Source: Thermodesulfovibrionales bacterium
GTDB lineage: Bacteria > Nitrospirota > Thermodesulfovibrionia > Thermodesulfovibrionales > SM23-35
Direction of reading: 5' to 3'
Assembly (NCBI GenBank): GCA_049700155.1
Contig: JBNAVX010000021.1
Location: 1-46,599, forward strand
Length of the DNA: 46,599 nucleotides
Under the pieces are notes generated by a model that was given only the letters and a program-made list of their open reading frames with translations, was not told where the DNA came from and did not search any database. Of this stretch, positions 7,755 through 36,852 are shown one piece after another. How positions within the stretch are numbered: the stretch's first letter is position 1; each line of letters opens with the position of its first letter. Position numbers and translations under genes: made by a program.

Positions 7755-7787
7755 TATAACAAATATCAAAGATAATAATGTTATAAT
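7753..7787. promoter_or_regulatory. Perfect 9-bp inverted repeat ATTATAACA-N17-TGTTATAAT, candidate operator
   Basis: Read directly. It overlaps the putative -10 and lies between the divergent GntR gene and the PEP-utilizer gene. Confidence 0.35.
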
Positions 7788-7791
7788 CTTT

Positions 7792-8535: not shown

Positions 8536-8629
8536 GATGGATTAGGATTTTGGGGAGGTGAGAAAAAAATAAATAGATGATACCTTGGATATCAAAGGGA
8601 AATAATTGAGAATAATTGAAGGAGTTTCT

Positions 8630-9148: not shown

Positions 9149-9164
9149 AATAGGGGGAGATAAA

Positions 9165-10737: not shown

Positions 10738-10905
10738 ATGGCAGAGAACATTAGAACGTATAAAGATTTAAGAGTATTTCAACATGCAATGGAATCTGCT
10801 ATGAGGATTTTTGAAATTACAAAGACTTTCCCCGTTGAAGAACGGTATTCCCTTGTTAATCAGATAAAACGGTCATCAAAAAAGGAAGGTTACCATGGCT
10901 TTTGA
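10738..10905 (+). pseudogene. Truncated four-helix-bundle protein gene ('23S rRNA intervening-sequence protein' family), N-terminal ~47 aa retained
   Basis: MAENIRTYKDLRVFQHAMESAMRIFEITKTFPVEERYSLVNQIKRSS matches the family N-terminus (DLxVWQxA...FPxEERYxLxxQxRRAA). It then diverges and stops at 10903-10905, overlapping the next gene's start. Confidence 0.6.
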
Positions 10906-11608
10906 AAAAGTTATACATAAATATTTTGACAAGGTTCTTACTGAGGTTGATTTTGTGAAAAAGACCTATAATGCTCTGGAAAAATACGGATTCAATGACG
11001 AAAATGCAATTGCATCTGTCTGTATATGCAGGGATGAGATATCCCAACCACTGAGGAGTATAATAAAACATATATGGGGTGAAGCATTTGACCTTTCAAG
11101 TCTCGGAGGAATGTTTTTTGCTGGTAAGGCTGGGCTAAAAGCAATAATGCATCATGCGCCTGTATTTGCAGGTAAAGAACGATATGTCTTTTATGCCTTA
11201 CCCCACATTGCAATTGGAGAGAATGGCAAGTTAGGTGTGTGTAAAAGAAGAGGTAGAAAAGAAGAGTCAAATGCTTGCGGGGCATTAACTGTATTTTTGA
11301 ATGAACTTTCAAGCAAAAAACTGAATATTGCGATGGATTATGAAGACATTGAGTTGAGTTTAATTAGAACTCGTCTTTTAAGAGAGCTTACATATGGTCA
11401 TGTTCCTGACCTCATACAATTGACAAAAATAGCGTTAAAAGCCATTAAAGAAGACATAGAAAATGCACTGAAAAAAACTATAGACAAAAAACACAGCGAC
11501 TATGCATTAATAATGGGGATACAGATAAATGCCCCTGACGGCAATTATATCTGGCCTGCTGAATGTTATGTATTTGTGAATGGAATTAAAAAAGATGTTA
11601 CATTATAA
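10895..11608 (+). CDS. LCIB/LCIC-like beta-carbonic-anhydrase-fold protein (tentative)
   Basis: Motifs CICRDE (C43/C45), LPHIAIG (H104), NACGAL (C128). The Cys-His-Cys spacing (about 59 and 24 residues) matches my recollection of the LCIB-family zinc ligands. 27 nt upstream of the V-ATPase E gene. Confidence 0.5.
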   Translation: MAFEKVIHKYFDKVLTEVDFVKKTYNALEKYGFNDENAIASVCICRDEISQPLRSIIKHIWGEAFDLSSLGGMFFAGKAGLKAIMHHAPVFAGKERYVFYALPHIAIGENGKLGVCKRRGRKEESNACGALTVFLNELSSKKLNIAMDYEDIELSLIRTRLLRELTYGHVPDLIQLTKIALKAIKEDIENALKKTIDKKHSDYALIMGIQINAPDGNYIWPAECYVFVNGIKKDVTL

Positions 11609-24696: not shown

Positions 24697-24739
24697 TTTA
24701 ATCCGAGTAATGCAGATGTTTATAATTCATGACATAAAT

Positions 24740-24861
24740 GCAGGACATAGTATTCTCGCTCATTCTCGGTCGTTCCGACCTCCGAGGCTTTTGCCTCTTT
24801 ATATTAGAAATATTCTCAAAGGAATATCAGCAAAAGAATCCGCTCAAATACTATGCCCTGC
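24740..24861 (+). repeat. Structured palindromic element, copy 1 (outer stem GCAGGACATAGTATT / AAATACTATGCCCTGC)
   Basis: Shares the blocks AGTATTCTCGCTCATTCTCGG, CCTCCGAGG and AATCCGCTC(A/G)AATACT with 39352-39460. The internal hairpins differ in sequence but pairing is kept. Confidence 0.6.
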
Positions 24862-24945
24862 TTTTTGTGCCACAGTCGCCTGCGACTACAATGGTTTTAT
24901 AATGAACTTTGCTTAATTCAGGTATTTTGCCTGAGGGGAGGGAAT

Positions 24946-25350
24946 ATGGCAGAGATTTTAATTGTAGATGATGAAGTGGATATGCTTGCCCTTCTTGCTA
25001 TGATCATCACAGAAAAGACCAATCACAGGGCAACAACCACAAATAATCCTTTTGAGGTACCTAAATTAATTAAAGAAGGTAATTTCGATTTATTGATTGC
25101 TGATCTAAAGATGCCTGGTATGGGTGGTATAGAACTCATTGATGAAGTTAGAAAGATAGATAAAATTATTCCTATACTTATTATTACCGCTTATGGTTCT
25201 ATTGAATCAGCAGAAGAGGCGATACATAAGGGTGCTTATGATTACATCACAAAACCCTTTCGCAAAGAGCAGATACTTATTGCTATTAATAGGGCACTTG
25301 AATGGAAAGAGATGAAGAGAGAGATTGATTATTTAAAAGGGAAAAAATAA
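24946..25350 (+). CDS. Single-domain response regulator (CheY-like REC)
   Basis: ATG 24946 behind gaggggaggg. VDDE, ADLKMPG, ITAYG and TKPF pocket residues are present, and there is no output domain. Confidence 0.85.
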   Translation: MAEILIVDDEVDMLALLAMIITEKTNHRATTTNNPFEVPKLIKEGNFDLLIADLKMPGMGGIELIDEVRKIDKIIPILIITAYGSIESAEEAIHKGAYDYITKPFRKEQILIAINRALEWKEMKREIDYLKGKK

Positions 25351-25600
25351 TAAAAAGCATTATCCAAAAAATTGTTTAAGAACCCTTCTATAACATTTTT
25401 AAAAAGCCTTTTTTCTTATCTATTGTGAATGCATAGCCTATTAATAATTTTATAATTTATTTTTATAATTTAAATTTTAACTTTTTATTGACTTTGTAAT
25501 AACATTAGATTATTCTACTATATCTCTTAACATGTTGCGAAACACATCTGAGATGTTGCAAATCAAAACAACATAAAGAAAAGGAGGAGAGAAGATTAAA

Positions 25601-26575
25601 ATGGAAAAGCGATTCTCTAAATTTTTGTTCATCTCCTTAGTCTTACTAGCTATAACATTAGTTGCTGTCACCCTATTTGCTACTACTGAACCATCAACTG
25701 TCCAGCAAACAGCAGAAAAGGGTTCAAAGATTCCTTGGTGGGCATGGTCAATTATACTCTTAGTTTTTACATTTATCCTTGGTATACTCGCTGTGCTTGG
25801 AGGGGTAGGAGGTGGTGTATTATTCGTTCCTCTTGTAGGGGGGTTCTTCCCTTTTCATATTGACTTCGTGAGAGGAGCCGGCTTAATTGTAGCCCTTTCA
25901 GGAGCACTTGCTGCAGGTCCTGGGCTTTTAAAAAGGAATCTTGCTAGCCTCCGTCTCGCCCTTCCTGTAGCCTTAATCGCTTCATCTTCAGCAATAATCG
26001 GTGCAATGATAGGACTTGCCCTTCCAGCACATATAGTTAATATACTTCTTGGTGCAACTATAATCGGTATTGTCATAATCATGGCTTCTGCAAAGAAGTC
26101 TGATTTTCCGAATGTCCCAAAGCCTGATAAACTATCTCAAACATTAGGCATAATGGGAATATACAGAGAGGTATCCCTTGGTAAAGATATTGAATGGAAT
26201 ATACATAGAACGGCTCCGGGATTAATCTTATTTATAGTTATCGGCATAATGGCAGGAATGTTCGGTCTTGGGGCTGGTTGGGCAAATGTCCCTGTCCTGA
26301 ACCTTCTCATGGGAGCGCCTCTTAAGATATCTGTTGCAACAAGTAAGTTCTTACTTTCCATAACTGACACATCTGCTGCATGGATTTATCTCAATTCAGG
26401 TGCCGTGCTTCCGATGATAGTTGTTCCATCAGTTGTGGGTATTATGCTTGGTTCTATCGTTGGTGTTAGGATCCTCGCGGTTGCAAAACCAAAGGCGATT
26501 AAATGGATAGTAATAGGACTTTTATTATTCGCAGGAGTCAGGGCTTTACTTAAAGGGCTCGGGATATGGAGATGA
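25601..26575 (+). CDS. TSUP (TauE/SafE, DUF81) family anion permease
   Basis: Polytopic. Motif GGVGGGVLFVPLV and a second-half repeat GLGAGWANVPVLNLL are typical of TauE/SafE. Confidence 0.75.
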   Translation: MEKRFSKFLFISLVLLAITLVAVTLFATTEPSTVQQTAEKGSKIPWWAWSIILLVFTFILGILAVLGGVGGGVLFVPLVGGFFPFHIDFVRGAGLIVALSGALAAGPGLLKRNLASLRLALPVALIASSSAIIGAMIGLALPAHIVNILLGATIIGIVIIMASAKKSDFPNVPKPDKLSQTLGIMGIYREVSLGKDIEWNIHRTAPGLILFIVIGIMAGMFGLGAGWANVPVLNLLMGAPLKISVATSKFLLSITDTSAAWIYLNSGAVLPMIVVPSVVGIMLGSIVGVRILAVAKPKAIKWIVIGLLLFAGVRALLKGLGIWR

Positions 26576-26585
26576 AAATAAATTT

Positions 26586-26613
26586 AAAACTCAAAAGTCA
26601 AAACTCAAAACTG
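26586..26613. repeat. Heptamer tandem repeat AAAACTC AAAAGTC AAAACTC AAAACTG
   Basis: Read directly; lies in the 85-nt spacer between the TSUP gene and the small membrane protein gene. Confidence 0.7.
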
Positions 26614-26660
26614 AGAATCTTATAAAAATTTTAAACTTTTTATGAAATCAGGAGGGTTTT

Positions 26661-27083
26661 ATGGCAGAAGAGGATAGAACAAAGGCATCAGGTGAACAGA
26701 TTATATATGCAAATATCTTAAATATAGGTATGTATTTAGGTCTTGCTATTATAATAGTAACCTTTATTATATACATCTTAGGGATATTACCATCATTTAT
26801 TCCACCTCAGGATATCCCCAAATACTGGACGATGAAATCTGGAGACTTTATACATAGCCTGCATGCCCCTACAGGATGGGATTGGTTAGCATTGGTTAAT
26901 AAGGGAGATTATCTGAATTTTATAGGGATAGCATTACTTGCAGGACTAACCATTCTGTGTTATATTTGTATATTGCCAATATTGTTAGGTAAAAAAGATT
27001 TTATCTATTTTGTTATTTCTCTCATTGAAGTAGCAGTGTTGGCATTGGCGGCAAGTGGGATATTAAAATCAGGAGGTCATTAA
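26661..27083 (+). CDS. Small integral membrane protein (about 4 TM), DUF1634-like (tentative)
   Basis: Hydrophobic segments. DUF1634 proteins are commonly adjacent to TSUP genes. RBS aggaggg. Confidence 0.5.
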   Translation: MAEEDRTKASGEQIIYANILNIGMYLGLAIIIVTFIIYILGILPSFIPPQDIPKYWTMKSGDFIHSLHAPTGWDWLALVNKGDYLNFIGIALLAGLTILCYICILPILLGKKDFIYFVISLIEVAVLALAASGILKSGGH

Positions 27084-27085
27084 TC

Positions 27086-27925
27086 ATGGCAAATAAGGTG
27101 TGTCCAATAATAGAAAGGCTTGAAAGGCTGCTTTTAGCCACAGATGGTTCAGAATACAGTGAAGGGGCTGTTAGGGAGGCTATTAATTTAGCAAAGACAT
27201 GTGGAAGTAAACTATATGCTATATCAGTTATAGAGGTCAATCCTGAGTTTGAAGCACTTGCACCTGGACTTGCTGAAAAGGAAGAAAAGCAGAGAAGTGA
27301 ACATCTCAAGACAGTTAAATCAAAGGCGTCTAAGGAAGGTGTTGATTGTGAGATTATTTTATATCGTGGCGGAGAACCTTATGAATCTATCGTTGACGAA
27401 GCAGCAAAGAACAAGGTAGGGATGATTGTCATGGGTAGATACGGTCGAACTGGTTTAGGAAGGGTTATGATGGGAAGCACGACTGCTAAAGTCATAGGCT
27501 ATACACTTTGCAGGGTCATGGTTGTTCCTAAAGAAGCAAAGCTAAACTTTGATAAGATACTTATTGCTACAGATGGTTCAATGCATAGCGAATTTGCAGC
27601 AAATGAGGCTATAAGCATCGCAAAACGCAGTGGTAGTACATTGATTGCTCTTTCTGTTGCAAAAAAAGATGAAAATCTTCCAGCTGCAAAGGAGTGTGTT
27701 GATGCAGTAAAAAAAGATGCTGAAAAAGAAGGCATAAAAGTAAAAACTATAATCAGAAAGGGGATACCTCACGAGGTTATAGTAAAAACAGGTGCTCAGG
27801 AAGATGTTGGTCTTATAGTTATTGGAAGCCACGGTAGGACAGGCATAACAAAACTACTCATGGGGAGCGTAACAGAGAGAGTAATAGGACATGCAGAGAG
27901 CCCTGTCCTGGTTTGGAAACTTTAA
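27086..27925 (+). CDS. Tandem universal stress protein (2 x UspA)
   Basis: MGRYGRTGLGRVMMGSTTAKV and IGSHGRTGITKLLMGSVTERV. Its N-terminus is nearly identical in pattern to that of 4253-5158. Confidence 0.85.
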   Translation: MANKVCPIIERLERLLLATDGSEYSEGAVREAINLAKTCGSKLYAISVIEVNPEFEALAPGLAEKEEKQRSEHLKTVKSKASKEGVDCEIILYRGGEPYESIVDEAAKNKVGMIVMGRYGRTGLGRVMMGSTTAKVIGYTLCRVMVVPKEAKLNFDKILIATDGSMHSEFAANEAISIAKRSGSTLIALSVAKKDENLPAAKECVDAVKKDAEKEGIKVKTIIRKGIPHEVIVKTGAQEDVGLIVIGSHGRTGITKLLMGSVTERVIGHAESPVLVWKL

Positions 27926-28130: not shown

Positions 28131-28427
28131 ATGGCCACTGAATTCAGAAGGAAACATAAAAGGCAATATCATGTCGGCTTCGTAAGATACCACCTAAATG
28201 TCTTAGATAATAAGAGGTTGAAGAAAGTTCAGGGAACCGGTGTTTCTGTAGATATAAGTGAAGGAGGGCTTGGCTTGATAACTCAATATCCACTCGAGGA
28301 AGGACATTTTTTACTCTTTGAAGATGGGAATTTGATAGATGATATTAAACTCAAGGCGTCTATCGTCAGATGGACACAGGAACTTGAAGACAAAACTTAT
28401 CGTGTGGGATTGGAGTTTGTAGAATAA
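28131..28427 (+). CDS. Stand-alone PilZ-domain protein (c-di-GMP receptor type)
   Basis: RRKHKR (RxxxR) and DISEGGLG (DxSxxG) motifs at the canonical spacing. Confidence 0.75.
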   Translation: MATEFRRKHKRQYHVGFVRYHLNVLDNKRLKKVQGTGVSVDISEGGLGLITQYPLEEGHFLLFEDGNLIDDIKLKASIVRWTQELEDKTYRVGLEFVE

Positions 28428-28438: not shown

Positions 28439-29800
28439 TCATTCTCCTTCTAATCCATATTTTTTCAACTTTCTCCACAGTGATACTCTATCAATTTTAA
28501 GTATCTGTGAAGCAAGTGTTTTATTGCCACCTACTTCCTTTAAGACCCAGTTAATGTAGGACTTTTCCTGTTCCTCAAGTGAAGGATATCTACCCTCCTT
28601 TTTTCTGAAGGTCCTTATGCTCAATTGTCTGAGGTCCTCAGGAAGATGAGCTACCTCAATCATGTCTCCAGTTGTGAGGGCAACACCTCTTTCGATGATA
28701 TTTTCCAGTTCTCTAACATTTCCCGGGAAATCGTAGTTTACCAGAATAGCCATTACTTCAGGGGAGATCTCCTTTACATCTTTTTTCATCAATAATGCAT
28801 ACTTTTTCAGGAAATAGTAACCTAAGAGAGGTATATCGTCTTTTCTTTCTGAAAGGGGTGGAATATGTAATGAAACCACATTTAATCTGAAATATAAATC
28901 CTGTCTTAATCGTCCAGCCTTCACCGCATCCTGTATGTCTCTATTTGTTGCTGCAATAAACCTGACATCCACCTTTATAGGTTCTGTCCCCCCTACCCTT
29001 AAGACCTCTTTTTCCTGAATAACCCTTAAAAGCTTTACCTGCATAGAAGGAGGCATTTCTGTTATCTCATCAAGAAAGAGAGTGCCTTTAGATGCAGTTT
29101 CTATTAATCCTTTTTTCATAGCTACTGCACCAGTAAATGCACCTTTTTCATGCCCGAAAAGCTCACTTGAAAGGAGTTCCTCTGTAAAGGCACCACAATT
29201 TATGGCAAAGAATGGACCCCCAGCACGCAGACTATTGAAATGTATAAATCTCGCAAACAGCTCCTTACCTGTTCCACTCTCTCCGCTTATGAGGACATTA
29301 CACTCTGTTGGCGCTATCTGCCTTGCTGTATCAAGGAGCTTCTGCATCTTTATATCCTGTGTAATTATCTTAACCTTGCCCTGAAATTTTTCTATCTGCT
29401 CCCTGAGTTCAATGTTCTCTCTCTTTAACCTTACCTTTTCAACTGCCTCCTTAACGACCTTTCTTACCTCTTCCAGTTTAAAAGGCTTCGCTACATAATA
29501 GAATGCACCGTGTTTCATGGTCTCAACAGCAGACTCAAGAGTGGCATAACCTGTTATCATTATCACCTCTGTGTCAGGATATAGCTCACGGCATTTTTTC
29601 AGTATCTGCATCCCGTCCACCTTCTCCATCCTCAAGTCTGTCAGTACAACATCAAATTGGTGTTCTTCTATGAGTCTGAGTGCAGTAGGTCCACTTTCTG
29701 TTCCAATAACATCATAACCCTCTTTTCTCATAACATGTTCGAGGTTTTTAAGTGCAATCTTTTCATCATCAACGATTAATATCTTTGCTGTAACCTCCAT
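28439..29800 (-). CDS. Sigma54-dependent response regulator (NtrC family: REC + AAA+ + Fis-type HTH)
   Basis: REC (VDDE, LTDLRM, KPF), Walker A GESGTGKE, GAFTGA loop, Walker B FLDEI, C-terminal HTH (NKTLASQILKIDRVSLWRKLKKYG). Start overlaps the HK stop by 1 nt. Confidence 0.92.
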   Translation of the reverse strand: MEVTAKILIVDDEKIALKNLEHVMRKEGYDVIGTESGPTALRLIEEHQFDVVLTDLRMEKVDGMQILKKCRELYPDTEVIMITGYATLESAVETMKHGAFYYVAKPFKLEEVRKVVKEAVEKVRLKRENIELREQIEKFQGKVKIITQDIKMQKLLDTARQIAPTECNVLISGESGTGKELFARFIHFNSLRAGGPFFAINCGAFTEELLSSELFGHEKGAFTGAVAMKKGLIETASKGTLFLDEITEMPPSMQVKLLRVIQEKEVLRVGGTEPIKVDVRFIAATNRDIQDAVKAGRLRQDLYFRLNVVSLHIPPLSERKDDIPLLGYYFLKKYALLMKKDVKEISPEVMAILVNYDFPGNVRELENIIERGVALTTGDMIEVAHLPEDLRQLSIRTFRKKEGRYPSLEEQEKSYINWVLKEVGGNKTLASQILKIDRVSLWRKLKKYGLEGE

Positions 29801-31344
29801 TATTTCTCCTTTTTTATTGGTAATCTTATCAGGAATGAAGTCCCTTTACCAACTTCGCTATAGACTCCTATACAGCCATTATTTTCTTCAATAATCTCCT
29901 CAACAACATAGAGACCGAGTCCAGAGCCCTTTCTGATATCAATTCTTGAGCTGGAATCTTTTTCAGAATCCTTTGTTGTGAAAAAAGGTTCAAATATCCT
30001 CGGTAAAATCTCAGGGGGAATCCCTACACCTGTATCTTTTATCTCAATGTCAATTGTATCTTTACCAATAGGACACTCACCTGTACATGTGTAACGATAT
30101 TCTGGATATTCACAGACCTTTTCATATGTCTCATTAACTGTTCCTTCTGCCTTCTTTGTAAAATGTTTCTTTGCCATAATGAATACCTTTCCTTCATCAG
30201 TAATTGCTTCAATAGCATTTTTTATGAGATTTAAGAAAGCCTGCTGAATCCTCTGTTTATCAGCAAAAATGTATATATCATCCGCTATATCAACGTTGAT
30301 TTCGATTCCTGATGGTATTTCACCTTTGATAAATAGGATCGTCTCTTCAATAAGTTTTTTAAGCGGTAGGCTCTCTTTTTTGAATTCCCTGTGTCTTGAG
30401 AATTCTAATAAAGAACGGACAATATCACGCGCCCTATCTGTCTGTGTGGAAATCTGTGTAAGCAGTTCTTTTTTATAATCTGTATCAGCCTCTTCAAGCT
30501 CTTCTGCGAGTATCTGGCAGGATGATGATATATTTGCTAACGGGTTATTCAATTCATGTGCAACGCCAGAAAGTAATGTCCCAAGTGAGGCGAGCTTCTC
30601 TCTCTGTATAAGGTGTTTCTGTCTTAATTCAAGTTCACTCAACATCTTATTGAATGCATCTGTTAAAGAAACGATCTCTCTGTCTTTTGAATTGATTGAC
30701 ACAGTTCTGAGCTTCCTTTCTTCTATTAGTTTCATCTGTTCTTCCAATGCTTGAAGAGGTTTTTCTACCATCCTCGACAGAATTTGACCGATTACAATCC
30801 CTAAAAGTGATAAAGAGATAATCAGGAGAACAAGTATCCTCTGTGTTCTCGTGAGTAATTCCTGTAATCTCTTCCTTTCAGTCTTTGACAAATCTTCAGA
30901 AACTGTCACTATCTCCTTGCCTTTTTCTCTTATTAACTTCTCCAGAGCTATTCGCTTATCAATGTTATTCTTATTAGTTATAGCGAATTCAGTCATCAAT
31001 GACTTATATTCATCTAAACCCCTTTTTATGAAATAAAGCTGTGGGGCTATAGAAAGCCTCTTAAATCTATCAATATGTTGATTAAGTATTTCCTGAAGCT
31101 TGTTGACATAATCCATATTTTCCCTGTAGTCCTCATCTTTGTTATATAAAAAGAAGTTCTTCTCGAACCGCCTTATCTCAAGAACGCCGTCAAATAGTTC
31201 CGAGATAACATCTCCAAATTGGACCTTCCTCTCCATATACCAGAGTTCTGTAAGTGTGAAGATAGTGATTAATATTAGGACCAATATCCCGCCGTAATAA
31301 CCAAGAATAATCTTCTGCCTCAAGCTTGAGGGAAATTTAAACAT
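29800..31344 (-). CDS. Membrane sensor histidine kinase (HK3) with helical extracytoplasmic sensor and a Cys-containing insertion in the ATPase domain
   Basis: Two TM segments flank a helical region of about 130 aa. H-box VAHELNNPLA, N-box LIKNAIEA, G1 DTGVGI, G2 GSGLGL. About 25 extra residues lie between N and G1, including CEYPEYRYTCTGEC (30073-30114). Confidence 0.85.
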   Translation of the reverse strand: MFKFPSSLRQKIILGYYGGILVLILITIFTLTELWYMERKVQFGDVISELFDGVLEIRRFEKNFFLYNKDEDYRENMDYVNKLQEILNQHIDRFKRLSIAPQLYFIKRGLDEYKSLMTEFAITNKNNIDKRIALEKLIREKGKEIVTVSEDLSKTERKRLQELLTRTQRILVLLIISLSLLGIVIGQILSRMVEKPLQALEEQMKLIEERKLRTVSINSKDREIVSLTDAFNKMLSELELRQKHLIQREKLASLGTLLSGVAHELNNPLANISSSCQILAEELEEADTDYKKELLTQISTQTDRARDIVRSLLEFSRHREFKKESLPLKKLIEETILFIKGEIPSGIEINVDIADDIYIFADKQRIQQAFLNLIKNAIEAITDEGKVFIMAKKHFTKKAEGTVNETYEKVCEYPEYRYTCTGECPIGKDTIDIEIKDTGVGIPPEILPRIFEPFFTTKDSEKDSSSRIDIRKGSGLGLYVVEEIIEENNGCIGVYSEVGKGTSFLIRLPIKKEK

Positions 31345-31579
31345 ATATTAATTTTAAAAGTTATCATTGCAAAAAGCAATGTTTGACGATTCTTTTGCAA
31401 CATTAAACGATAAATAGTTTGTAATCTTTTATTGATGCGTCTCTATCAATAATCTATAAGTAAGATAAACTTTGTATTCAATTCTATGTTGAATTATGCA
31501 TCAATTAGTCTTTTTTATTAGATGACCCTCTTTTTAAAAATATCATGAAAAAACAATATCTTACGAATATAAAGGTGCA

Positions 31580-31595
31580 TGGCATGGAATATGTT
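31580..31595 (+). promoter_or_regulatory. Sigma54-like -24/-12 element TGGCAT-N5-ATGT (weak -12)
   Basis: TGGCATGGAATATGTT lies 33-48 nt upstream of ATG 31628. GG is present but the -12 reads GT rather than GC. Confidence 0.3.
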
Positions 31596-31627
31596 TAAGT
31601 TAAATACAAAAAGGAGGTGTGTAAGGA

Positions 31628-31807
31628 ATGAAAAAGCTGATTAAAAAATTAGAAAGGCTATTTTCAGCAGCAGCCTTTGCAGAGGCTGGCGAATACGATA
31701 CTGCAAGGGAGATTCTAAGAGAAGAAGAAAGACCTCAGAAGAGAGAAAGGGTCACTCCATCTACAAGGCCAAGAAAGGAGCTAAGGGCACCAGGCATAAA
31801 AAGGTAA
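31628..31807 (+). CDS. Unannotated 59-aa protein with an 'FAEAGE-x2-TAREI' N-terminal module and a basic Pro/Arg-rich tail
   Basis: Strong RBS aaaaggaggtg with 8-nt spacing. MKKLIKKLERLFSAAAFAEAGEYDTAREILREEERPQKRERVTPSTRPRKELRAPGIKR. The N-terminal ~30 aa are paralogous to the N-terminus of 34126-34602. Confidence 0.6.
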   Translation: MKKLIKKLERLFSAAAFAEAGEYDTAREILREEERPQKRERVTPSTRPRKELRAPGIKR

Positions 31808-31833
31808 AACTAAGGTAAAACTAAAGTAAAAGG
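31801..31833. repeat. Tandem 11-mer AAGGTAAAACT AAGGTAAAACT AAAGTAAAAGG
   Basis: Read directly. It spans the small-ORF stop codon and most of the spacer before the Lon start. Confidence 0.7.
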
Positions 31834-31845
31834 CGCTAAATAAAA

Positions 31846-33954
31846 ATGAATATCTTTAAGAGATCAGAAGATAAGCTACAGGCTGCAACGATTGAGGAGA
31901 TAAGGCAGGTAATTGCCTCATCTAAGATACCACCTTATGTCCAGCAGGTCGCAAAAAAGGAGCTTGATATGCTATCGAAGACAAGCCCTACTGTAGCGGA
32001 ATATGCGATAGGGCTTGCATACATTGAATATCTTGTCAGTTTACCATGGGATAAGAAGACTGAGGACTGCCTCGATCTTGAGAGGGCTGAAAGAATCCTG
32101 AACGAAAGGCACTATGGATTGCAGATGGTTAAGGAGAGAATCTTAGAGCACCTATCAGTAAAGATCTTAATAGCAAATAAAAAACCAAGAATTCTGGTTG
32201 TAGATGATGAAGAAGTTGCAAGAAAAAACTTAGAACATATATTGAAGAAAGAAAACTATACAGTTGTCACAGCAGCGAATGGAGCAGAAGCTATTAAGAA
32301 GATGGAGGCATCTAATTTTGATGTGATTCTTACTGATATCAGAATGGAGAAGGTTAACGGGATTGAGGTTCTTGAAAGGGCTAAAAACATATGCCCCGAG
32401 ACCAAGGTTATCATGATTACTGGTTATGCATCAGTGGACTCTGCTGTTGAGACTATGAAGAAAGGTGCATTTCATTATATTGAAAAGCCCTTTAAGGTTG
32501 ATACAGTGCGCTCAGTTGTAAAAAATGCAATTGAGAAGAAGCTGTCAACTATCTCTACAAAAGGCTCTGTATTATGCTTTGCAGGTCCACCGGGAACAGG
32601 GAAGACCTCACTGGGTAAGTCTATTTCTGATGCACTTGGGAGAAAGTTTGCGAGGATCTCTCTTGCAGGTATGAAAGATGAGGCTGAGATCAGAGGACAT
32701 AGAAGGACATATGCAGGTGCAATGCCCGGGCGTATTATTGAAGAGATTAGACGTGTAGAATCTTCTAATCCTGTCTTCATGCTCGATGAGATTGATAAGA
32801 TAGGACAGGACTTTAAAGGTGATTCTGCCTCTGCACTGCTTGAAGTACTCGACCCTGAACAGAATCAAAATTTTCTCGACCACTATCTTGATGTACCTTT
32901 TGACTTATCTGGCGTGATGTTTATTGTAACGGCAAATATTGCTGACAATATTCATGATGCACTCAGAGACCGAATGGAAGTAATCGAACTATCAGGCTAT
33001 ACAGAGGATGAAAAGATAAAGATAGGCTTACAGTATCTTGTTCCGAAGCAGATCCGTGAACAGGGACTATCAGATTATCCACCTGAATTTACTCCTGAGG
33101 CTATATTAAAGATCGTTCATGAATATACACGAGAAGCAGGCATCCGCAATCTTGAGAGGCAGATCGCCAACATCTGTAGAAAGATTGCCACAGAATATGT
33201 CCATCATAAAAAGAATATTCAAAATATTAAAGTGACACCCCGCGAGGTAGAGAAATATCTTGGAACGAGAAAATACTACAGAGAGGTTGCTGATGAGGAG
33301 AATAGGATTGGTGTAACTACTGGTCTTGTATGGACAGAAACAGGTGGAGAGATTATCTTTGTAGAGGCTGCGAAGATGAAGGGAAATAAACAATTAATAC
33401 TGACTGGTTCCCTGGGGAATGTAATGTGTGAATCAGCACATGCAGCATTGAGTTATATAAGGAGCAATGCATCAGTCTTCAACATCCCTGACAACTTCTT
33501 TGAGAACCATGACATCCATATCCATGTACCTGCTGGAGCCATACCAAAAGACGGACCATCTTCAGGGACTACGATCGCACTCGCTCTTATTTCACTTCTA
33601 ACCGGGGTACCTGCGAGGAGAGATGTAGCTATATCAGGTGAGATGACATTGAGCGGAAGGATACTTCCTGTTGGAGGTATCAAAGAGAAGTTGCTGGCTG
33701 CAAGACGGGCAGGAGTAAAAACAGTAGTCTTCCCTCTTAAGAATAAGGTAGATATTGAAAGTCTTCCTGAAGATGTAAAAAGAGGACTTGATATAAGACT
33801 TGTTGATAGAATCGAGGAGATCGTTCCTATTGTTCTAATGAATAAATCAAAGTCTGATATACAGGATAGGCAGAGGTCAAACCTTTTTCATTCAGAGGGA
33901 ATTGCAATCTGCAACATGAATACCCTTTCATGTAGCAGTATTAAAAAAGCTTGA
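31846..33954 (+). CDS. LonA-type protease lacking the N-terminal LON domain, with a receiver (REC) domain inserted into the AAA+ module
   Basis: LPW motif region, HYGLQMVKERILEHLSV, then REC (nt about 32188-32541; Asp codon 32335-32337). This is followed by GPPGTGKTS, DEAEIRGHRRTYAGAMPGRI, FMLDEIDK, and the protease domain PKDGPSSG...GGIKEKLLAA. Confidence 0.85.
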   Translation: MNIFKRSEDKLQAATIEEIRQVIASSKIPPYVQQVAKKELDMLSKTSPTVAEYAIGLAYIEYLVSLPWDKKTEDCLDLERAERILNERHYGLQMVKERILEHLSVKILIANKKPRILVVDDEEVARKNLEHILKKENYTVVTAANGAEAIKKMEASNFDVILTDIRMEKVNGIEVLERAKNICPETKVIMITGYASVDSAVETMKKGAFHYIEKPFKVDTVRSVVKNAIEKKLSTISTKGSVLCFAGPPGTGKTSLGKSISDALGRKFARISLAGMKDEAEIRGHRRTYAGAMPGRIIEEIRRVESSNPVFMLDEIDKIGQDFKGDSASALLEVLDPEQNQNFLDHYLDVPFDLSGVMFIVTANIADNIHDALRDRMEVIELSGYTEDEKIKIGLQYLVPKQIREQGLSDYPPEFTPEAILKIVHEYTREAGIRNLERQIANICRKIATEYVHHKKNIQNIKVTPREVEKYLGTRKYYREVADEENRIGVTTGLVWTETGGEIIFVEAAKMKGNKQLILTGSLGNVMCESAHAALSYIRSNASVFNIPDNFFENHDIHIHVPAGAIPKDGPSSGTTIALALISLLTGVPARRDVAISGEMTLSGRILPVGGIKEKLLAARRAGVKTVVFPLKNKVDIESLPEDVKRGLDIRLVDRIEEIVPIVLMNKSKSDIQDRQRSNLFHSEGIAICNMNTLSCSSIKKA

Positions 33955-34059
33955 TAGACTTTAAAAAAACAGATTCTTTATTTAAGAATGTTGCAAAATT
34001 AAACGAGAGAAAAACCCTTAGTAAACGAGAAAACCTGAAAAATTAAATAGTTATTAAGT

Positions 34060-34075
34060 TGGTATAAGAATTGTT
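34060..34075 (+). promoter_or_regulatory. Sigma54-like -24/-12 element TGGTAT-N5-TTGT (imperfect)
   Basis: TGGTATAAGAATTGTT lies 51-66 nt upstream of ATG 34126 and has the same deviation pattern as 31580-31595. Confidence 0.3.
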
Positions 34076-34125
34076 AAATTGAACAACCTGATGGAGCATA
34101 AAGAGAGTGAAAAATTAAAGAGCTT

Positions 34126-34602
34126 ATGAAAAAGGAGAATCTAAAAGACTTGATAAAAAAGATAGAAGACATAATGACTGCCTCTACCTTTGCAGAGGCA
34201 GGTGAGTTTGAGACTGCAAGGGAAATAATAAAAGGCGAAAGAAGGGTACTCCTTGCTATGAGAGAAGGAGAGGTAGAAAGAAAAGCCTTAACATATGCAT
34301 TGAATACATGTAAGAGAATCGGGGCTGATATGGATATCTTATATATCTCAACGATTGATGCAAGCGAAAATCCGATTCTAAAAGAATTTTTTTCAGAGCT
34401 TCAGAGAGAGGGGATAAATTATCGGCTGTTTATGAAGACTGGTCGTTTGAGAGAAGAGATTAAGCACTACACAGACTCTGAGAGTAATATCAAATTTGTC
34501 GTTGTTGAGTCACCTGCTGCTGAACGCTGGAATAGAGAGGAGGGGCTCTCTAAGATACTCGAAAAGATTAAGTGTCCGCTGGTAGTGGTAGATATCCCCT
34601 AA
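34126..34602 (+). CDS. FAEAGE-module protein fused to a USP-like (adenine-nucleotide alpha-hydrolase-fold) domain lacking the ATP-binding motif
   Basis: The N-terminus KDLIKKIEDIMTASTFAEAGEFETAREII parallels the 31628 ORF. The remainder follows a USP-like beta-alpha pattern (VLLAM...DILYIS...FVVVES...CPLVVV) without G-x2-G-x9-G(S/T). Confidence 0.6.
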   Translation: MKKENLKDLIKKIEDIMTASTFAEAGEFETAREIIKGERRVLLAMREGEVERKALTYALNTCKRIGADMDILYISTIDASENPILKEFFSELQREGINYRLFMKTGRLREEIKHYTDSESNIKFVVVESPAAERWNREEGLSKILEKIKCPLVVVDIP

Positions 34603-34663: not shown

Positions 34664-34915
34664 ATGGCAAAAGAAGGTGTCAAGAAGAAGAAACCTGTTG
34701 GAAAGATGCTCTTATTTGGGATTGTTACAGTAACCCTCTATGTGCTCCTGTTATCAAATCAGGATTTTATTAACAAAAATTTTGTGCGAGGTGGATTTTA
34801 TGCCCTGCTACCTATAGCAACGGCATTTATCTTCTCGTTCTTCCACGGGACATTTACAGGGAGTTTCTGGACTGTCCTCGGTGTTGAGGCAAAAAAGAAG
34901 AGGGAGGTGAAATAA
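34664..34915 (+). CDS. Small membrane protein (2 TM, Lys-rich termini)
   Basis: Strong RBS aaaaggagg. Its stop abuts the start of the TSUP gene, suggesting translational coupling. Confidence 0.6.
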   Translation: MAKEGVKKKKPVGKMLLFGIVTVTLYVLLLSNQDFINKNFVRGGFYALLPIATAFIFSFFHGTFTGSFWTVLGVEAKKKREVK

Positions 34916-34916
34916 T

Positions 34917-36011
34917 ATGCATGATGTAGTAAGTCAGGTAAGCAATTTTATCGACCTTACATGGATGAACATATTGTATCTATTCTTTGTGGGTTTTGTC
35001 GGTGGTCTTGTGAGCGGATTTATCGGTTCAGGAGGTGCTTTTGTGCTCACTCCTGGAATGATGAGTATGGGTGTTCCTGGTCTTGTTGCAGTAGCAAGCA
35101 ACATGTGCCATAAGTTTCCAAAGGCACTCGTTGGTGCTATAAAACGTGCTAAATATGGTCAGGTTGATGTCAAGCTTGGATTGATTATGGGTGCCTCAGC
35201 CGAGGCAGGAGTCCTGTATGGAGCCCATATTCAGGAAAGTATCAAGAGGGCATGGGGAGATGCGGGTTCTAACCTTTATGTAAGTGTGGCATTCGTTGTG
35301 GTCCTGGCAATAGTTGGAGGTTATGTATTACGTGATGCCTTCAAAAGCAAAAAAACCGGAGATAGCTCTGAAGAAGAAAAGGTTACCAAGATTGCCCGCT
35401 GGGTGCAGTCTATACATATACCAGGAACAATGGTCTATTTTAAGAGTCTCAAGGCAAAGGTATCAGTTCTTCTTACCATACCGCTTGGTTTTGCAACAGG
35501 CATGCTTGCTGCCACTATAGCAGTTGGTGGTTTTATAGGTGTGCCAGCCATGATTTACGTACTTGGTGCACCAAGCCTTATGGCATCTGCAACAGAGCTT
35601 GTAATAGCATTTGTTATGGGTATGGGAGGTTCATTTAAATATGCACTGCATGGTTTTGTTGATATCCGGCTTTCAATGATTATACTTGCAGGCTCGCTCT
35701 TCGGGATCCAATTAGGCGCTATCGGTACAACATATGTAAAACCATTTATGATAAAGCTTGTCATGGGGCTTATCATGGTCATCGTCCTTTTCAGTCGTGG
35801 GTTGATGGTTCCTGTATATCTCTCACAACTTGGAGTAATCCAGACCCTGAGTGAAACTACAACTAAATTGTTAAAGACCACAAGCTTTGCTATAATGATG
35901 ATCGCCTTACTTACAGGAGCTATTGTGGTTTTAACTGCATTATGGAAAGGTATCAGGGAAGAAAAGTTGCAGCATGCTACAAAAGAGGTCTTAGAGCATG
36001 GGAAGATATAG
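34917..36011 (+). CDS. TSUP (TauE/SafE)-like permease, long form
   Basis: Polytopic. GFIGSGGAFVLTPGM and the second-half VGGFIGVPAMIYVLG resemble TauE repeats, with a hydrophilic central loop. Confidence 0.65.
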   Translation: MHDVVSQVSNFIDLTWMNILYLFFVGFVGGLVSGFIGSGGAFVLTPGMMSMGVPGLVAVASNMCHKFPKALVGAIKRAKYGQVDVKLGLIMGASAEAGVLYGAHIQESIKRAWGDAGSNLYVSVAFVVVLAIVGGYVLRDAFKSKKTGDSSEEEKVTKIARWVQSIHIPGTMVYFKSLKAKVSVLLTIPLGFATGMLAATIAVGGFIGVPAMIYVLGAPSLMASATELVIAFVMGMGGSFKYALHGFVDIRLSMIILAGSLFGIQLGAIGTTYVKPFMIKLVMGLIMVIVLFSRGLMVPVYLSQLGVIQTLSETTTKLLKTTSFAIMMIALLTGAIVVLTALWKGIREEKLQHATKEVLEHGKI

Positions 36012-36852
36012 AAAGATACTCGTTGCAATAGACGGCTCTGGATCAAGCAAGAATGCACTCAGACAGGCGATAAAGCTGGCAAACAGTGAGGAATGCTGGA
36101 TTACTGTCGTATCTGTAATCCCATCTTACACAGGAGACCTTTCAGCAACATTTATAGGTGATATTAGAAAGGCTATGGCTGAGCCATGTGAAAGGGCACT
36201 CTCTGAAGCAGAAGAGATTGCTAAGGCTGAAAGGGCATTAATAAAGACTGTATGTGAAGAAGGGGAGATATACGAGAGGATTGTTGACCTTGCAGAAGCA
36301 GAGAATTGCGATCTTATAGTAATGGGAAGGAAAGGTCTCTCAAAGATAGAAAGGGCATTCATGGGAAGTGTAACAGCAAGGGTTATCGGACACAGCCAGA
36401 GAGATGTCCTTGTAGTTCCTGAGAATACTGCCATAGGTTGGAAGTGTATCTTCCTTAATACTGATGGTTCTAAATATAGTGAGGCTGCAACAGAGAGTGC
36501 GATAAACTTTGCAAAATCTTATGGTGGGGAGCTGATGGTCCTTTCAGTAGTCGAGGTAACAGAAGAATTTATTACACGTGCCCCTGGAATGCTTGAAGAA
36601 ATGGTTAAGAAGGCAAAGGGTTTTGTAGATGATGTGAAGAAGAAGGCAGAAAATTCTAATATTAAGACCACGACATTCGTGAGAGAAGGTGAGGCTTATA
36701 AGGTAATAACAGACCTTGCAAAAGAGCAGAAGGCTGATATTATCTTTATGGGAAGCCATGGAAGAACAGGACTTAAAAGACTTCTCATGGGTAGCGTAAC
36801 AGCAAAGGTTATAGGATATGCACCCTGCCCCGTACTTGTAGTCAGACCTTAA
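35998..36852 (+). CDS. Tandem universal stress protein (2 x UspA)
   Basis: ILVAIDGSGSS, MGRKGLSKIERAFMGSVTARV, MGSHGRTGLKRLLMGSVTAKV. Overlaps the end of the TSUP gene by 14 nt. Confidence 0.85.
   Translation: MGRYRKILVAIDGSGSSKNALRQAIKLANSEECWITVVSVIPSYTGDLSATFIGDIRKAMAEPCERALSEAEEIAKAERALIKTVCEEGEIYERIVDLAEAENCDLIVMGRKGLSKIERAFMGSVTARVIGHSQRDVLVVPENTAIGWKCIFLNTDGSKYSEAATESAINFAKSYGGELMVLSVVEVTEEFITRAPGMLEEMVKKAKGFVDDVKKKAENSNIKTTTFVREGEAYKVITDLAKEQKADIIFMGSHGRTGLKRLLMGSVTAKVIGYAPCPVLVVRP

What the first reader, a model, noticed from the sequence alone, without database searches (positions are those of the whole stretch)
31628..31807. Unannotated 59-aa ORF upstream of REC-Lon sharing an 'FAEAGE-x2-TAREI' module with the first gene of the next operon
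This ORF is below the ORF-track length cut-off but has one of the best RBSs in the window (aaaaggaggtg). Its N-terminus KKLIKKLERLFSAAAFAEAGEYDTAREIL aligns residue-for-residue with KDLIKKIEDIMTASTFAEAGEFETAREII at the start of the USP-like protein (34126-34602). In the small protein the module is followed by a basic, Pro/Arg-rich and probably disordered tail. In the other protein it is followed by a USP-like fold. Its position directly upstream of a Lon that lacks its own substrate-recognition domain suggests an adaptor, degron or anti-adaptor role. I do not recognise the module as a named family.
Basis: partly seen in the sequence, partly recalled or inferred. Interest (0 to 1): 0.7.

Follow-up and report, generated by a model that had tools for sequence, protein, structure and literature searches.

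The report
Conserved small hairpin protein beside REC-Lon
The 59-codon ORF is a real, strongly conserved gene for a tiny protein (one TPR-like helical hairpin plus a conserved basic tail) that belongs to a stress-signalling gene cluster already known from Desulfovibrio (kinase, sigma-54 regulator, receiver-fused Lon protease, USP/TauE transporter operon), and its hairpin turns out to be one copy of a widespread, unnamed repeat.

Summary
ORF 31628-31807 exists, has a perfect Shine-Dalgarno site, and shares 20/35 residues with the N-terminus of the 158-aa protein at 34126-34602.

It is a true gene. There are more than 90 near-full-length homologues, synonymous sites are saturated, and pN is 0.08-0.21 in both halves.

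The shared segment is one unit of an unnamed TPR/FimV-like hairpin repeat ("FAEAGE"). A profile search found it in about 1,500 protein clusters, in 1-4 copies. It is fused to divergent USP domains or REC domains, or stands alone with short C-terminal motifs.

The window protein belongs to the subclass with a conserved basic tail (…RKELRAPGIKR).

The neighbourhood is the counterpart of the D. vulgaris DVU3303-3305 "three-component system" plus its DVU3302-3298 target operon: histidine kinase, sigma-54 regulator, REC-Lon, USP-like, small membrane protein, TauE and tandem Usp. The small gene heads a transcription unit with a conserved sigma-54-type promoter.

Gene order around Lon varies. However, tail-bearing small proteins track REC-Lon, once even without the transporter operon, and Lon-less module loci lack them.

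A Lon-linked connector role is therefore plausible but unproven. The family is undescribed and of moderate interest.

The parts
31366..31380 (.). Perfect palindrome ATTGCAAAAAGCAAT. Candidate enhancer-binding-protein site, about 214 nt upstream of the sigma-54-like promoter.
   Evidence: It is one of only 3 exact RTTGC-N5-GCAAY matches in the 46.6-kb window. It is conserved in 5 of 6 relatives in the upstream alignment. It resembles the D. vulgaris DVU3305 site GTTGC-N4-GCAAC.
31488..31502 (.). Second, imperfect palindrome GTTGAATTATGCATC. Candidate enhancer site about 92 nt upstream of the promoter.
   Evidence: It has 2 mismatches to RTTGC-N5-GCAAY. The aligned position in relatives reads TGTTGCATTATGCAACA.
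31580..31595 (+). Sigma-54-type promoter candidate TGGCATGGAATATGTT (-24 TGGCA, -12 TG).
   Evidence: The core TGGCATG…TG is invariant in the six-relative alignment. A site scoring at least 9/12 against TGGCACG-N4-TTGCW lies upstream of 33 of 48 small genes, typically 44-90 nt from the start. Among control ORFs the figure is 53 of 1,309.
31609..31619 (+). Shine-Dalgarno AAAAGGAGGTG.
   Evidence: Read directly. Conserved in relatives.
31628..31807 (+). Small protein gene, 59 aa plus stop.
   Evidence: 93 homologues, nearly all 55-60 aa and covering the full length. Purifying selection.
31628..31720 (+). Residues 1-31: single 'FAEAGE' helical hairpin (helices 2-19 and 23-31).
   Evidence: AlphaFold pLDDT is 88-94. 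Invariant A14 F17 A18 A26, near-invariant E19 A20 G21 E22. The profile finds 1,496 proteins, many with 2-4 copies.
31721..31804 (+). Residues 32-59: basic tail. The conserved C-terminal motif RPRKELRAPGIKR occupies residues 47-59 (nt 31766-31804).
   Evidence: Near-invariant R47 L52 R53 A54 P55 G56 R59. Related …[LMI]RA[PS]… tails occur in Nitrospirota and Thermodesulfobacteriota. Modelled as coil, pLDDT 60-67.
31801..31831 (.). 2.8 copies of an 11-nt tandem repeat (AAGGTAAAACT) spanning the stop codon and the spacer before Lon.
   Evidence: The spacer length before Lon varies among relatives (17-174 nt), so the repeat is probably incidental.
31846..33954 (+). REC-Lon: short Lon neck helix, receiver domain, AAA+, Lon lid, Lon protease domain. 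No Lon N-terminal substrate-binding domain.
   Evidence: Pfam. The REC domain is 55% identical to the REC of the adjacent sigma-54 regulator. No terminator-like site is predicted on the + strand between the small gene and Lon.
33901..33915 (.). Perfect palindrome ATTGCAATCTGCAAC, with an imperfect one at 33990-34004. Candidate enhancer sites for the second promoter.
34060..34075 (+). Second sigma-54-type promoter candidate TGGTATAAGAATTGTT, ahead of the USP-like gene.
   Evidence: Relatives with Lon inserted between the two genes have TGGCAY-N5-TTGNT at the same place (L009, L012, L051, L060).
34126..34602 (+). 158-aa protein: N-terminal FAEAGE hairpin (residues about 6-40, nt 34141-34245) followed by a divergent USP-fold domain.
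34664..36852 (+). Rest of the operon: 83-aa membrane protein (34664-34915), TauE/TSUP anion transporter (34917-36011) and tandem Usp (35998-36852).
   Evidence: Pfam. Synteny across about 40 loci.
28439..31344 (-). Divergent histidine kinase (29800-31344) and sigma-54-dependent response regulator (28439-29800).
   Evidence: Pfam. Conserved next to the cluster.

Best explanation
**Shown**
- The ORF encodes a genuine 59-aa protein. It has one TPR/FimV-like helical hairpin (a single 'FAEAGE repeat') and a conserved basic tail ending in RKELRAPGIKR.
- It is the first gene after a conserved sigma-54-type promoter and is probably co-transcribed with REC-Lon.
- It sits in a conserved cluster: histidine kinase, sigma-54 response regulator, REC-Lon, hairpin-USP-like protein, small membrane protein, TauE transporter and tandem Usp. 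This is the counterpart of the D. vulgaris DVU3303-3305 three-component system and its DVU3302-3298 target operon.

**Inferred**
- The kinase phosphorylates both the regulator and the closely paralogous REC domain of Lon.
- The regulator then switches on the small gene (with Lon) and the transporter operon.
- The small protein acts as a connector. Its hairpin pairs or stacks with the equivalent single hairpin on the USP-like protein, as the repeats do within one chain in multi-repeat relatives.
- Its conserved C-terminal motif engages the REC-Lon, which lacks its own N-terminal recognition domain.
- The outcome could be delivery of the USP-like regulator to Lon, shielding of that regulator as a decoy, or degradation of the small protein itself as a timer. 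The direction cannot be decided from sequence.
For: **Real gene**
- Conservation over the full length.
- pN far below a saturated pS in both the module and the tail.
- Conserved RBS.

**Regulon**
- The sigma-54-like promoter is strongly enriched upstream of small genes: 33/48 against 53/1,309 controls.
- Conserved palindromes lie upstream of both promoters. They resemble the measured DVU3305 site.
- In D. vulgaris, DVU3305 regulates DVU3302-3298 and its own operon. DVU3303-3305 have pairwise cofitness above 0.9.
- The Lon REC domain is 55% identical to the regulator's REC domain.

**Hairpin as an association unit**
- 2-4 tandem copies occur in many proteins.
- Single copies are spread over two or three different proteins of one locus: small protein plus USP-like, or REC proteins plus a three-repeat protein in L088.
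- There is weak TPR and FimV-C-terminal similarity in sequence and fold.
- Small and USP-like hairpins from the same locus are slightly more alike than those from different loci: 0.463 against 0.434, permutation p = 0.0012.

**Tail linked to Lon**
- 39/56 REC-Lon loci carry a small module protein, mostly within 1.7 kb.
- Small proteins with this tail found independently of Lon also sit beside REC-Lon.
- L176 has the small gene and REC-Lon alone, without the transporter operon.
- Five Lon-less module loci lack the tail class.
Against: - No interaction was tested.
- About a quarter of REC-Lon loci with at least 5 kb of flank on both sides (9 of 36 by my hand count) have no small gene. The small protein is therefore not obligatory for REC-Lon.
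- L004 has a small gene with this tail beside a USP/TauE operon with no Lon in the locus. The same genome does have REC-Lon elsewhere.
- The association counts come from non-independent, phylogenetically clustered loci and a small Lon-less sample.
- The within-locus similarity excess is small and could reflect lineage composition or gene conversion.
- The tail is basic rather than hydrophobic or aromatic like known Lon degrons.
- In D. vulgaris, mutants of the signalling system gain fitness in chlorate while the transporter mutant loses fitness. A simple 'activate the transporter' logic does not explain this.
Confidence: 0.42

Rival explanations
1. Lon-independent micro-regulator. The small protein acts only through hairpin pairing, as a decoy or partner of the USP-like protein that gates the TauE transporter. 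Lon is merely co-regulated in the same stress cluster. The tail would serve another purpose, such as contacting the transporter, the membrane or the tandem Usp.
For: - The tightest and commonest adjacency is small gene followed by USP-like gene, often 10-40 nt apart under one promoter.
- L004 has small, USP-like, TauE and Usp genes with no Lon or two-component system in the locus.
- In some loci the small gene is the last gene of the transporter operon.
- A USP that regulates a transporter has precedent: TeaD is among the fold hits.
Against: - L176 has a small gene paired only with REC-Lon, with no USP or TauE genes nearby.
- Lon-less module loci lack the tail class.
Confidence: 0.28
2. Dedicated Lon substrate or allosteric regulator, analogous to LarA. 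The small protein binds REC-Lon through its C-terminal motif and tunes or times protease activity. The hairpin is only its folded body, and the resemblance to the USP-like N-terminus reflects common descent rather than interaction.
For: - Co-transcription with Lon in the window.
- The isolated small-gene/REC-Lon pair in L176.
- A conserved C-terminal short motif, as in LarA, where five C-terminal residues are essential.
Against: - LarA docks its terminal aromatic residue into the Lon N-terminal domain. This Lon lacks that domain, and the tail ends in Lys-Arg.
- The variable position relative to Lon, and the frequent fusion into the transporter operon, argue for a tie to the USP-like protein too.
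Confidence: 0.17
3. Nucleic-acid-binding or transcription-machinery modulator. The arginine/lysine-rich tail would bind DNA or RNA, or the sigma-54 activator or kinase, as a two-component 'connector'.
For: - The strongly basic tail.
- The position as first gene next to the kinase and regulator genes.
- Modules also occur on REC proteins in other loci.
Against: No nucleic-acid-binding fold or family hit. The association with REC-Lon is more specific than the association with the kinase and regulator.
Confidence: 0.08
4. Not a functional protein: a chance ORF, a leader peptide or uORF controlling Lon translation, or an RNA element.
For: It is short and lies just upstream of Lon in this window.
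Against: - Amino-acid conservation over the full length in more than 90 clusters.
- Saturated synonymous sites against low non-synonymous change.
- The position relative to Lon is not conserved, including convergent and distal placements.
- No Rfam match.
Confidence: 0.02

Closest known systems
D. vulgaris Hildenborough DVU3303 (REC-Lon) / DVU3304 (kinase) / DVU3305 (sigma-54 regulator) 'three-component system' with target operon DVU3302-3298 (Rajeev 2011 PMC3333781; Kazakov 2015 PMC4641369; Trotter 2023 PMC10102598)
   Same: The gene set is the same: kinase, sigma-54 regulator, Lon fused to a receiver, and a neighbouring operon of hypothetical, membrane (anion transporter) and UspA proteins. 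The divergent layout seen in many relatives here (L020, L037-L042, L096) matches the DVU gene order. The operator palindrome is similar.
   Different: Those papers do not describe the shared hairpin module, its repeat nature or the small protein's tail. DVU3302 and DVU3301 are listed only as 'hypothetical'. I could not fetch DVU3302 to confirm that it is the orthologue. The palindrome spacing here is N5, not N4.
FimV/HubP C-terminal TPR motif (NCBIfam TIGR03504; PDB 4mal/4mbq) and TPR repeats in general
   Same: A helix-turn-helix of about 30 residues with small or hydrophobic positions and a Gly at the turn. It occurs singly or in tandem and is a known protein-protein interaction unit. The best fold match of the 59-aa model is FimV TPR3: 33-36% identity over 25-27 residues, rmsd 0.5 Å.
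   Different: All sequence scores are below family cut-offs: 15.2 bits against 30.65 for the window protein, and TPR families at 17-25 bits against 23-27. The Foldseek E-value is not significant. The invariant acidic FAE-x-GE turn is specific to this family.
LarA, small heat-shock regulator and substrate of Caulobacter Lon (PMC10665427, PMC11882793)
   Same: A small protein dedicated to Lon whose activity resides in a short C-terminal motif.
   Different: LarA binds the Lon N-terminal domain through a terminal aromatic residue. REC-Lon has no such domain, and this tail is basic. There is no sequence similarity.
Anti-adaptors IraP/IraM/IraD acting on RssB, the receiver-domain adaptor of ClpXP (own knowledge, not tested here)
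   Same: Small stress-induced proteins that modulate proteolysis through a receiver-domain protein.
   Different: A different protease, no homology, and here the receiver is fused to the protease. The resemblance is a lead only.
TeaD, a universal stress protein that regulates the TeaABC TRAP transporter (PDB 3hgm)
   Same: A USP-fold protein encoded with, and thought to regulate, a transporter. It is among the top fold matches of the 158-aa protein.
   Different: TeaD has no N-terminal hairpin module. The 158-aa protein lacks a visible G-x2-G-x9-G(S/T) ATP-binding motif (read from the sequence).

Membership tests
Pfam TPR families (TPR_4, TPR_6, TPR_14 and others) | Score at or above the Pfam gathering threshold for a TPR model | tested here: not met
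   The window protein has no Pfam hit at E <= 0.01. Multi-repeat relatives reach 17-25 bits against cut-offs of 23.5-27.
FimV/HubP C-terminal motif (TIGR03504) | Score at or above the NCBIfam cut-off (30.65 bits) | tested here: not met
   15.2 bits for the window protein and 23.8 bits for the two-repeat relative P0296. The fold match to FimV TPR3 is not significant, E = 4.4.
TPR-like helical repeat (structural class) | Two antiparallel helices per unit, occurring in tandem arrays | tested here: met
   AlphaFold gives helices 2-19 and 23-31 at pLDDT about 90, and helices 3-24 and 28-35 in the 158-aa protein. Relatives carry 2-4 tandem units. Stacking of the units was not modelled.
Universal stress protein family (for the 158-aa partner) | Pfam PF00582 match above cut-off | tested here: not met
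   No hit at E <= 0.01. Multi-repeat relatives reach about 20 bits against a cut-off of 24.
Universal stress protein family (for the 158-aa partner) | USP alpha/beta fold | tested here: met
   The model has pLDDT 88. The top 12 Foldseek hits are all USPs (3tnj, 5ahw, 3hgm, 1jmv, 7ji4 and others) at probability 1.0 and E down to 2.5e-6.
Universal stress protein family (for the 158-aa partner) | ATP-binding motif G-x2-G-x9-G(S/T) before the last strand | tested here: not met
   The sequence reads …ESPAAERWNREEGLSKILEKIKCPLVVV with no such motif. The tandem Usp at 35998-36852 has it in both halves (read from the sequences).
DVU3303-3305-type three-component stress cluster | Adjacent histidine kinase, sigma-54 response regulator and receiver-fused Lon | tested here: met
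   Pfam architectures. Conserved in dozens of loci.
DVU3303-3305-type three-component stress cluster | Neighbouring target operon with hypothetical, membrane-transporter and UspA genes under a sigma-54 promoter | tested here: met
   USP-like, 83-aa membrane protein, TauE and tandem Usp. Sigma-54-like promoters at 31580 and 34060.
DVU3303-3305-type three-component stress cluster | Regulator binding site GTTGC-N4-GCAAC | tested here: inconclusive
   No good N4 match lies in the intergenic regions. Conserved N5 palindromes RTTGC-N5-GCAAY lie upstream of both promoters.
DVU3303-3305-type three-component stress cluster | The small protein is the orthologue of DVU3302 | not testable with these tools
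Only synteny with Thermodesulfobacteriota loci supports it.
LarA-type Lon regulators | C-terminal degron with a terminal aromatic or hydrophobic residue that docks into the Lon N-terminal domain | tested here: not met
   The tail ends …APGIKR. This Lon has no N-terminal substrate-binding domain.
Protease adaptor or anti-adaptor (functional class) | Physical binding to both the protease and the substrate, and a change in degradation rate | not testable with these tools
   Only gene-neighbourhood evidence is available.

The most novel reading that the evidence does not exclude
FAEAGE hairpins may form a modular hetero-association code. Single hairpins on different proteins of one locus (small proteins, USP-like regulators, receiver proteins) would assemble into TPR-like stacks. 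The short C-terminal motifs on the stand-alone members would be the effector ends. In this reading the …LRAPG… tail class is a trans-acting replacement for the missing Lon N-domain. It would be a new kind of adaptor that delivers the hairpin-tagged USP-like gatekeeper of an anion transporter to a phosphorylation-activated Lon.
Probability: 0.2. Interest if true: 0.8.

Novelty: new variant of a known kind. Interest (0 to 1): 0.55.

Why it matters
- **The open question.** REC-Lon proteases occur in many sulfate reducers and Nitrospirota, and in D. vulgaris REC-Lon belongs to a genetically validated stress and anion-transport signalling unit. How a Lon without its recognition domain chooses substrates is unknown.
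- **A concrete candidate.** A conserved 59-aa partner carries a transferable-looking C-terminal motif and a hairpin shared with the first protein of the target operon. This gives a cheap, direct set of experiments: binding, degradation and tail deletion.
- **A new family definition.** The work defines an unnamed repeat family of about 1,500 clusters at 50% identity. It marks sigma-54-controlled anion-transporter/USP loci in anaerobic sulfur-cycling bacteria and could be turned into a family model for annotation.

Tried and rejected
- **Third word-index protein search with the module profile.** It listed only the 120 best hits, all small proteins, so it gave no architectures. A first attempt failed because the query was under 40 aa. 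The exhaustive profile search gave the architectures instead.
- **Metagenome scan anchored on the sigma-54 regulator from Lon-less loci.** The aim was an unbiased sample. The tool chose generic AAA+ patterns, so only L096 and L097 were orthologous, and the Lon-less sample stayed at five loci.
- **Search for the DVU3305 operator with N4 spacing and for short inverted repeats.** Nothing useful turned up. The conserved sites proved to have N5 spacing.
- **PDB sequence search with the small-protein profile.** No meaningful hit.
- **Rfam scan of 31300-34200.** Nothing relevant.
- **Literature search for the motif string and for 'REC-Lon'.** No relevant papers.
- **Look-ups of several repeat-class representatives.** The contigs were too short to show context.
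- **Leader-peptide/uORF idea.** Rejected because the position relative to Lon is variable.
- **Recent duplication or gene conversion as the cause of the shared segment.** Not supported. DNA identity is limited to the conserved codons, and both families keep the module across phyla.
Full report

Yes. ORF 31628-31807 (+) encodes a 59-aa protein. A perfect Shine-Dalgarno sequence, AAAAGGAGGTG, lies 8 nt upstream.

BLASTP against the 158-aa ORF at 34126-34602 aligns residues 1-35 with residues 6-40. There are 20 identities, 29 positives and no gaps, with a pairwise E of 2e-12. A six-frame scan for the core motif finds exactly these two copies in the 46.6-kb window.

The gene between them (31846-33954) has this architecture: a short Lon neck segment, then REC, AAA+, Lon_lid and Lon_C. 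It has no Lon N-terminal substrate-binding domain. Neither the 59-aa nor the 158-aa protein matches any Pfam family.

**2. Is it a gene?**

- A database search returned 93 homologues. Nearly all are 55-60 aa and cover the whole query at 56-95% identity. They come from Nitrospirota/Thermodesulfovibrionales metagenome-assembled genomes, where some are annotated 'hypothetical protein'.
- Conservation covers the tail as well as the N-terminal module. M1, A14, F17, A18, A26 and A54 are invariant. E9, E19, A20, G21, E22, R47, L52, R53, P55, G56 and R59 are near-invariant.
- Nei-Gojobori comparisons with nine orthologues give pN of 0.08-0.21 against pS of 0.62-0.9, in both the module and the tail halves.
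- There is no Rfam match in the region.

**3. What is the shared module?**

The N-terminal module is kept in all sampled members of the 158-aa family.

A 42-column profile of the module was searched against 1.84 billion representative proteins. It found 1,496 proteins at E <= 1e-3 and 288 at E <= 1e-10. Many of these have 2-4 matched stretches, so the module is a repeat unit.

Four architectures appear among the top hits:
- (a) 1-2 repeats plus a basic tail ending …[RK]xxLRAPG.xR. The window protein belongs here.
- (b) 1-4 repeats followed by a divergent USP-like domain, 150-430 aa in total.
- (c) 2-3 repeats plus a different C-terminal motif, …VGLxGVRVxYGxV.
- (d) two-repeat proteins of about 100 aa with a distinctive second repeat.

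In one locus the module also sits at the C-terminus of two receiver-type proteins (L088).

No Pfam or NCBIfam model passes its cut-off. There are only weak TPR_4/6/14, PPR and FimV-C-terminal hits. A literature search for the motif string found nothing relevant.

AlphaFold predicts a helical hairpin (helices 2-19 and 23-31, pLDDT about 90) followed by coil at pLDDT 60-67. The closest solved fold is the single TPR3 of FimV, with 33-36% identity over 25-27 residues and rmsd 0.5 Å, but the E-value is not significant. I therefore call it a TPR/FimV-like hairpin repeat that is not a member of any curated family.

The 158-aa protein models confidently (pLDDT 88) as the same hairpin followed by an alpha/beta domain. 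The best structural matches of that domain are universal stress proteins, including the transporter regulator TeaD and the KdpD USP domain. It lacks the ATP-binding glycine motif that the neighbouring tandem Usp retains (sequences).

**4. Genomic context**

Look-ups of homologues and a scan of species-representative genomes with the N-terminal 240 residues of the REC-Lon gave 56 non-redundant REC-Lon loci. These come from Nitrospirota and Thermodesulfobacteriota.

A scripted synteny analysis shows a recurrent gene set:
- histidine kinase
- sigma-54 response regulator
- REC-Lon
- small hairpin protein
- hairpin-USP-like protein
- a membrane protein of about 83 aa
- TauE
- tandem Usp

Order and orientation vary. 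The observed layouts are:
- small > Lon > USP-like (the window type)
- Lon > small > USP-like
- < USP-like < small | Lon > (divergent)
- Lon > < small (convergent)
- USP-like > TauE > Usp > small (small gene last)

This variability also excludes a leader-peptide role.

**5. The cluster is already known from functional genomics**

[quoted passage not shown] These genes are induced by several stresses.
- Transposon fitness data show pairwise cofitness above 0.9 for DVU3303-3305.
- Mutants of DVU3303-3305 gain fitness in chlorate. The putative anion transporter DVU3299 is needed in chlorate.
- The divergent layout in many of my loci (for example L020, L037-L042, L096) matches the DVU gene order.
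- None of these papers mentions the shared module or the small protein's tail. I could not fetch DVU3302 to confirm orthology.

**6. Regulation**

A sigma-54-type element, TGGCATGGAATATGTT, lies at 31580-31595, 48 nt before the start codon.
- Across loci, a site scoring at least 9/12 against TGGCACG-N4-TTGCW occurs upstream of 33 of 48 small genes. Most lie 44-90 nt from the start codon.
- Among control ORFs the figure is 53 of 1,309.
- Its core is invariant in an alignment of six upstream regions. That alignment also reveals conserved palindromes: ATTGCAAAAAGCAAT at 31366-31380 and GTTGAATTATGCATC at 31488-31502.

Only three exact RTTGC-N5-GCAAY sites exist in the window. Two of them lie upstream of the two sigma-54-like promoters, at 31366 and 33901. 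The second promoter, TGGTATAAGAATTGTT at 34060-34075, precedes the USP-like gene. The palindromes resemble the DVU3305 site GTTGC-N4-GCAAC, but with one extra spacer base. A search with N4 spacing found nothing useful.

Where the small gene directly precedes the USP-like gene, only the small gene has the promoter. Where Lon is inserted between them, as in the window, the USP-like gene has its own promoter.

The REC domain of Lon is 55% identical to the REC domain of the adjacent regulator. This fits one kinase feeding both outputs, but that step is inferred.

**7. Is the small protein tied to Lon or to the USP/TauE operon?**

Both, at different levels.

The module itself is tied to sigma-54-controlled anion-transporter/USP loci whether or not Lon is present:
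- Thermosulfuriphilus ammonigenes (L087)
- a Thermodesulfobacterium-like contig (L089)
- a locus with a DASS transporter in place of TauE directly after the USP-like gene (L090)
- loci rich in receiver proteins (L088 and L095)

None of these has REC-Lon, and none has a small protein with the …LRA… tail.

The tail class, in contrast, follows REC-Lon:
- 39 of 56 REC-Lon loci have a small module ORF with a short tail. Of the 36 loci with at least 5 kb of flank on both sides, I count 27 from that table.
- Of the 30 with the strict motif, 28 lie within 1.7 kb of Lon.
- Proteins of this tail class that were looked up independently of Lon again lie beside REC-Lon (L092/93; L096).
- In L176 an 84-aa two-repeat protein ending …PELRA lies convergent with REC-Lon. 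There are no transporter, USP or two-component genes in 14.5 kb.
- The one exception is L004. There the small gene lies with a second USP/TauE operon and no Lon in the locus, but the genome encodes REC-Lon elsewhere.

These counts are small and phylogenetically non-independent.

**8. Mechanism**

*Shown:*
- It is a real small protein made of a hairpin and a conserved tail.
- It has a conserved sigma-54-type promoter.
- It belongs to the DVU3303-type cluster.
- Its hairpin is one unit of a repeat that appears in tandem within proteins and singly on several proteins of one locus.

*Inferred:*
- Single hairpins associate between proteins as the tandem units do within proteins.
- The small protein therefore pairs with the USP-like protein.
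- Its tail contacts REC-Lon, which lacks its own recognition domain.
- This links phosphorylation-controlled proteolysis to the USP-like regulator of the transporter.

One weak extra hint: small and USP-like hairpins from the same locus are slightly more alike than those from different loci (0.463 against 0.434, permutation p = 0.0012).

The direction of action (adaptor, decoy or timer substrate) cannot be decided from sequence.

The LarA precedent is only a loose analogy. LarA is a small Lon regulator that acts through a C-terminal motif. It docks an aromatic terminus into the Lon N-domain, which is absent here.

The D. vulgaris phenotypes remain unexplained. Signalling mutants are fitter in chlorate, while the transporter mutant is less fit. 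A negative regulator within the operon could account for this, but that is speculation.

**9. Novelty and verdict**

The cluster is known. The REC-Lon was already noticed as unusual. Small protease regulators and TPR-like interaction hairpins are known kinds.

Three things are new:
- the definition of a widespread, unnamed repeat family;
- the recognition that the first two hypothetical proteins of this regulon share that repeat;
- the subclass with a conserved C-terminal motif that tracks REC-Lon.

I rate this a new variant of a known kind, of moderate interest. Its main value is a clear, testable hypothesis for how an N-domain-less Lon finds its substrate.

Noticed in passing
window 32176-32535 vs 28439-29800: The receiver domain of REC-Lon is 55% identical (83% similar) over 116 residues to the receiver of the adjacent sigma-54 regulator. 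This suggests a recent common origin and a shared kinase.
   Followed up: partly
L088 6346-6849 and 6868-7311: Two receiver-type proteins carry a single FAEAGE module at their extreme C-terminus. They sit next to a three-repeat small protein, a kinase, TauE and a PPDK-like gene. The module is therefore also used on two-component proteins.
   Followed up: partly
representative proteins P0300, P0305, P0341, P0361 and others; loci L088 and L095: A second class of stand-alone repeat proteins ends in a different conserved motif, …(F/L)xxxVGLxGVRVxYGxV. It occurs in loci with PAS-sigma-54 activators, dCache kinases and several single-domain receivers, without Lon.
   Followed up: partly
L176 4313-6685: A two-repeat small protein with a …PELRA tail lies convergent with a REC-Lon in a Thermodesulfobacteriota MAG, with none of the usual transporter, USP or two-component genes nearby. 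A TGGCACG…-type element lies upstream of the small gene.
   Followed up: partly
window 31801-31831: 2.8 copies of an 11-nt tandem repeat (AAGGTAAAACT) span the stop codon of the small gene and the spacer before Lon. The spacer length before Lon differs among relatives.
   Followed up: partly
window 22444-27925: A second transporter set lies immediately upstream: dCache-PAS kinase (22444-24696), single receiver (24853-25350), TauE (25601-26575), a 140-aa protein with no family (26661-27083) and tandem Usp (27086-27925). It has no FAEAGE module.
   Followed up: partly
window 3733-10688: A further stress and anion-transport grouping: CBS protein, tandem Usp (4253-5158), PPDK-like protein (5167-7686, minus strand), GntR regulator, CBS protein and a DASS (Na/sulfate symporter family) transporter (9165-10688). 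The third exact RTTGC-N5-GCAAY palindrome of the window (4354-4368) lies inside the Usp gene.
   Followed up: no
window 28131-28427; L009 3242: A 98-aa PilZ-domain gene sits next to the sigma-54 regulator. It is also present at the same place in relative L009.
   Followed up: no
L114 2769-2906: A 45-aa single-module ORF (…FAEAGEYDDA…) lies on the same contig as an otherwise unrelated NtrC-type regulator. The module may occur beyond the TauE/USP context.
   Followed up: no
L019, L049, L057, L059, L062 (REC-Lon loci): Some REC-Lon clusters have no small gene. In L049 the USP-like gene appears truncated, with a degenerate module (FIEEGRFETLKR). This suggests lineage-specific loss.
   Followed up: no
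window 10895-11608: An LCIB-type beta-carbonic anhydrase homologue (Pfam LCIB_C_CA, E = 5e-57) lies downstream of the DASS transporter. This family is best known from algal CO2-concentrating mechanisms.
   Followed up: no
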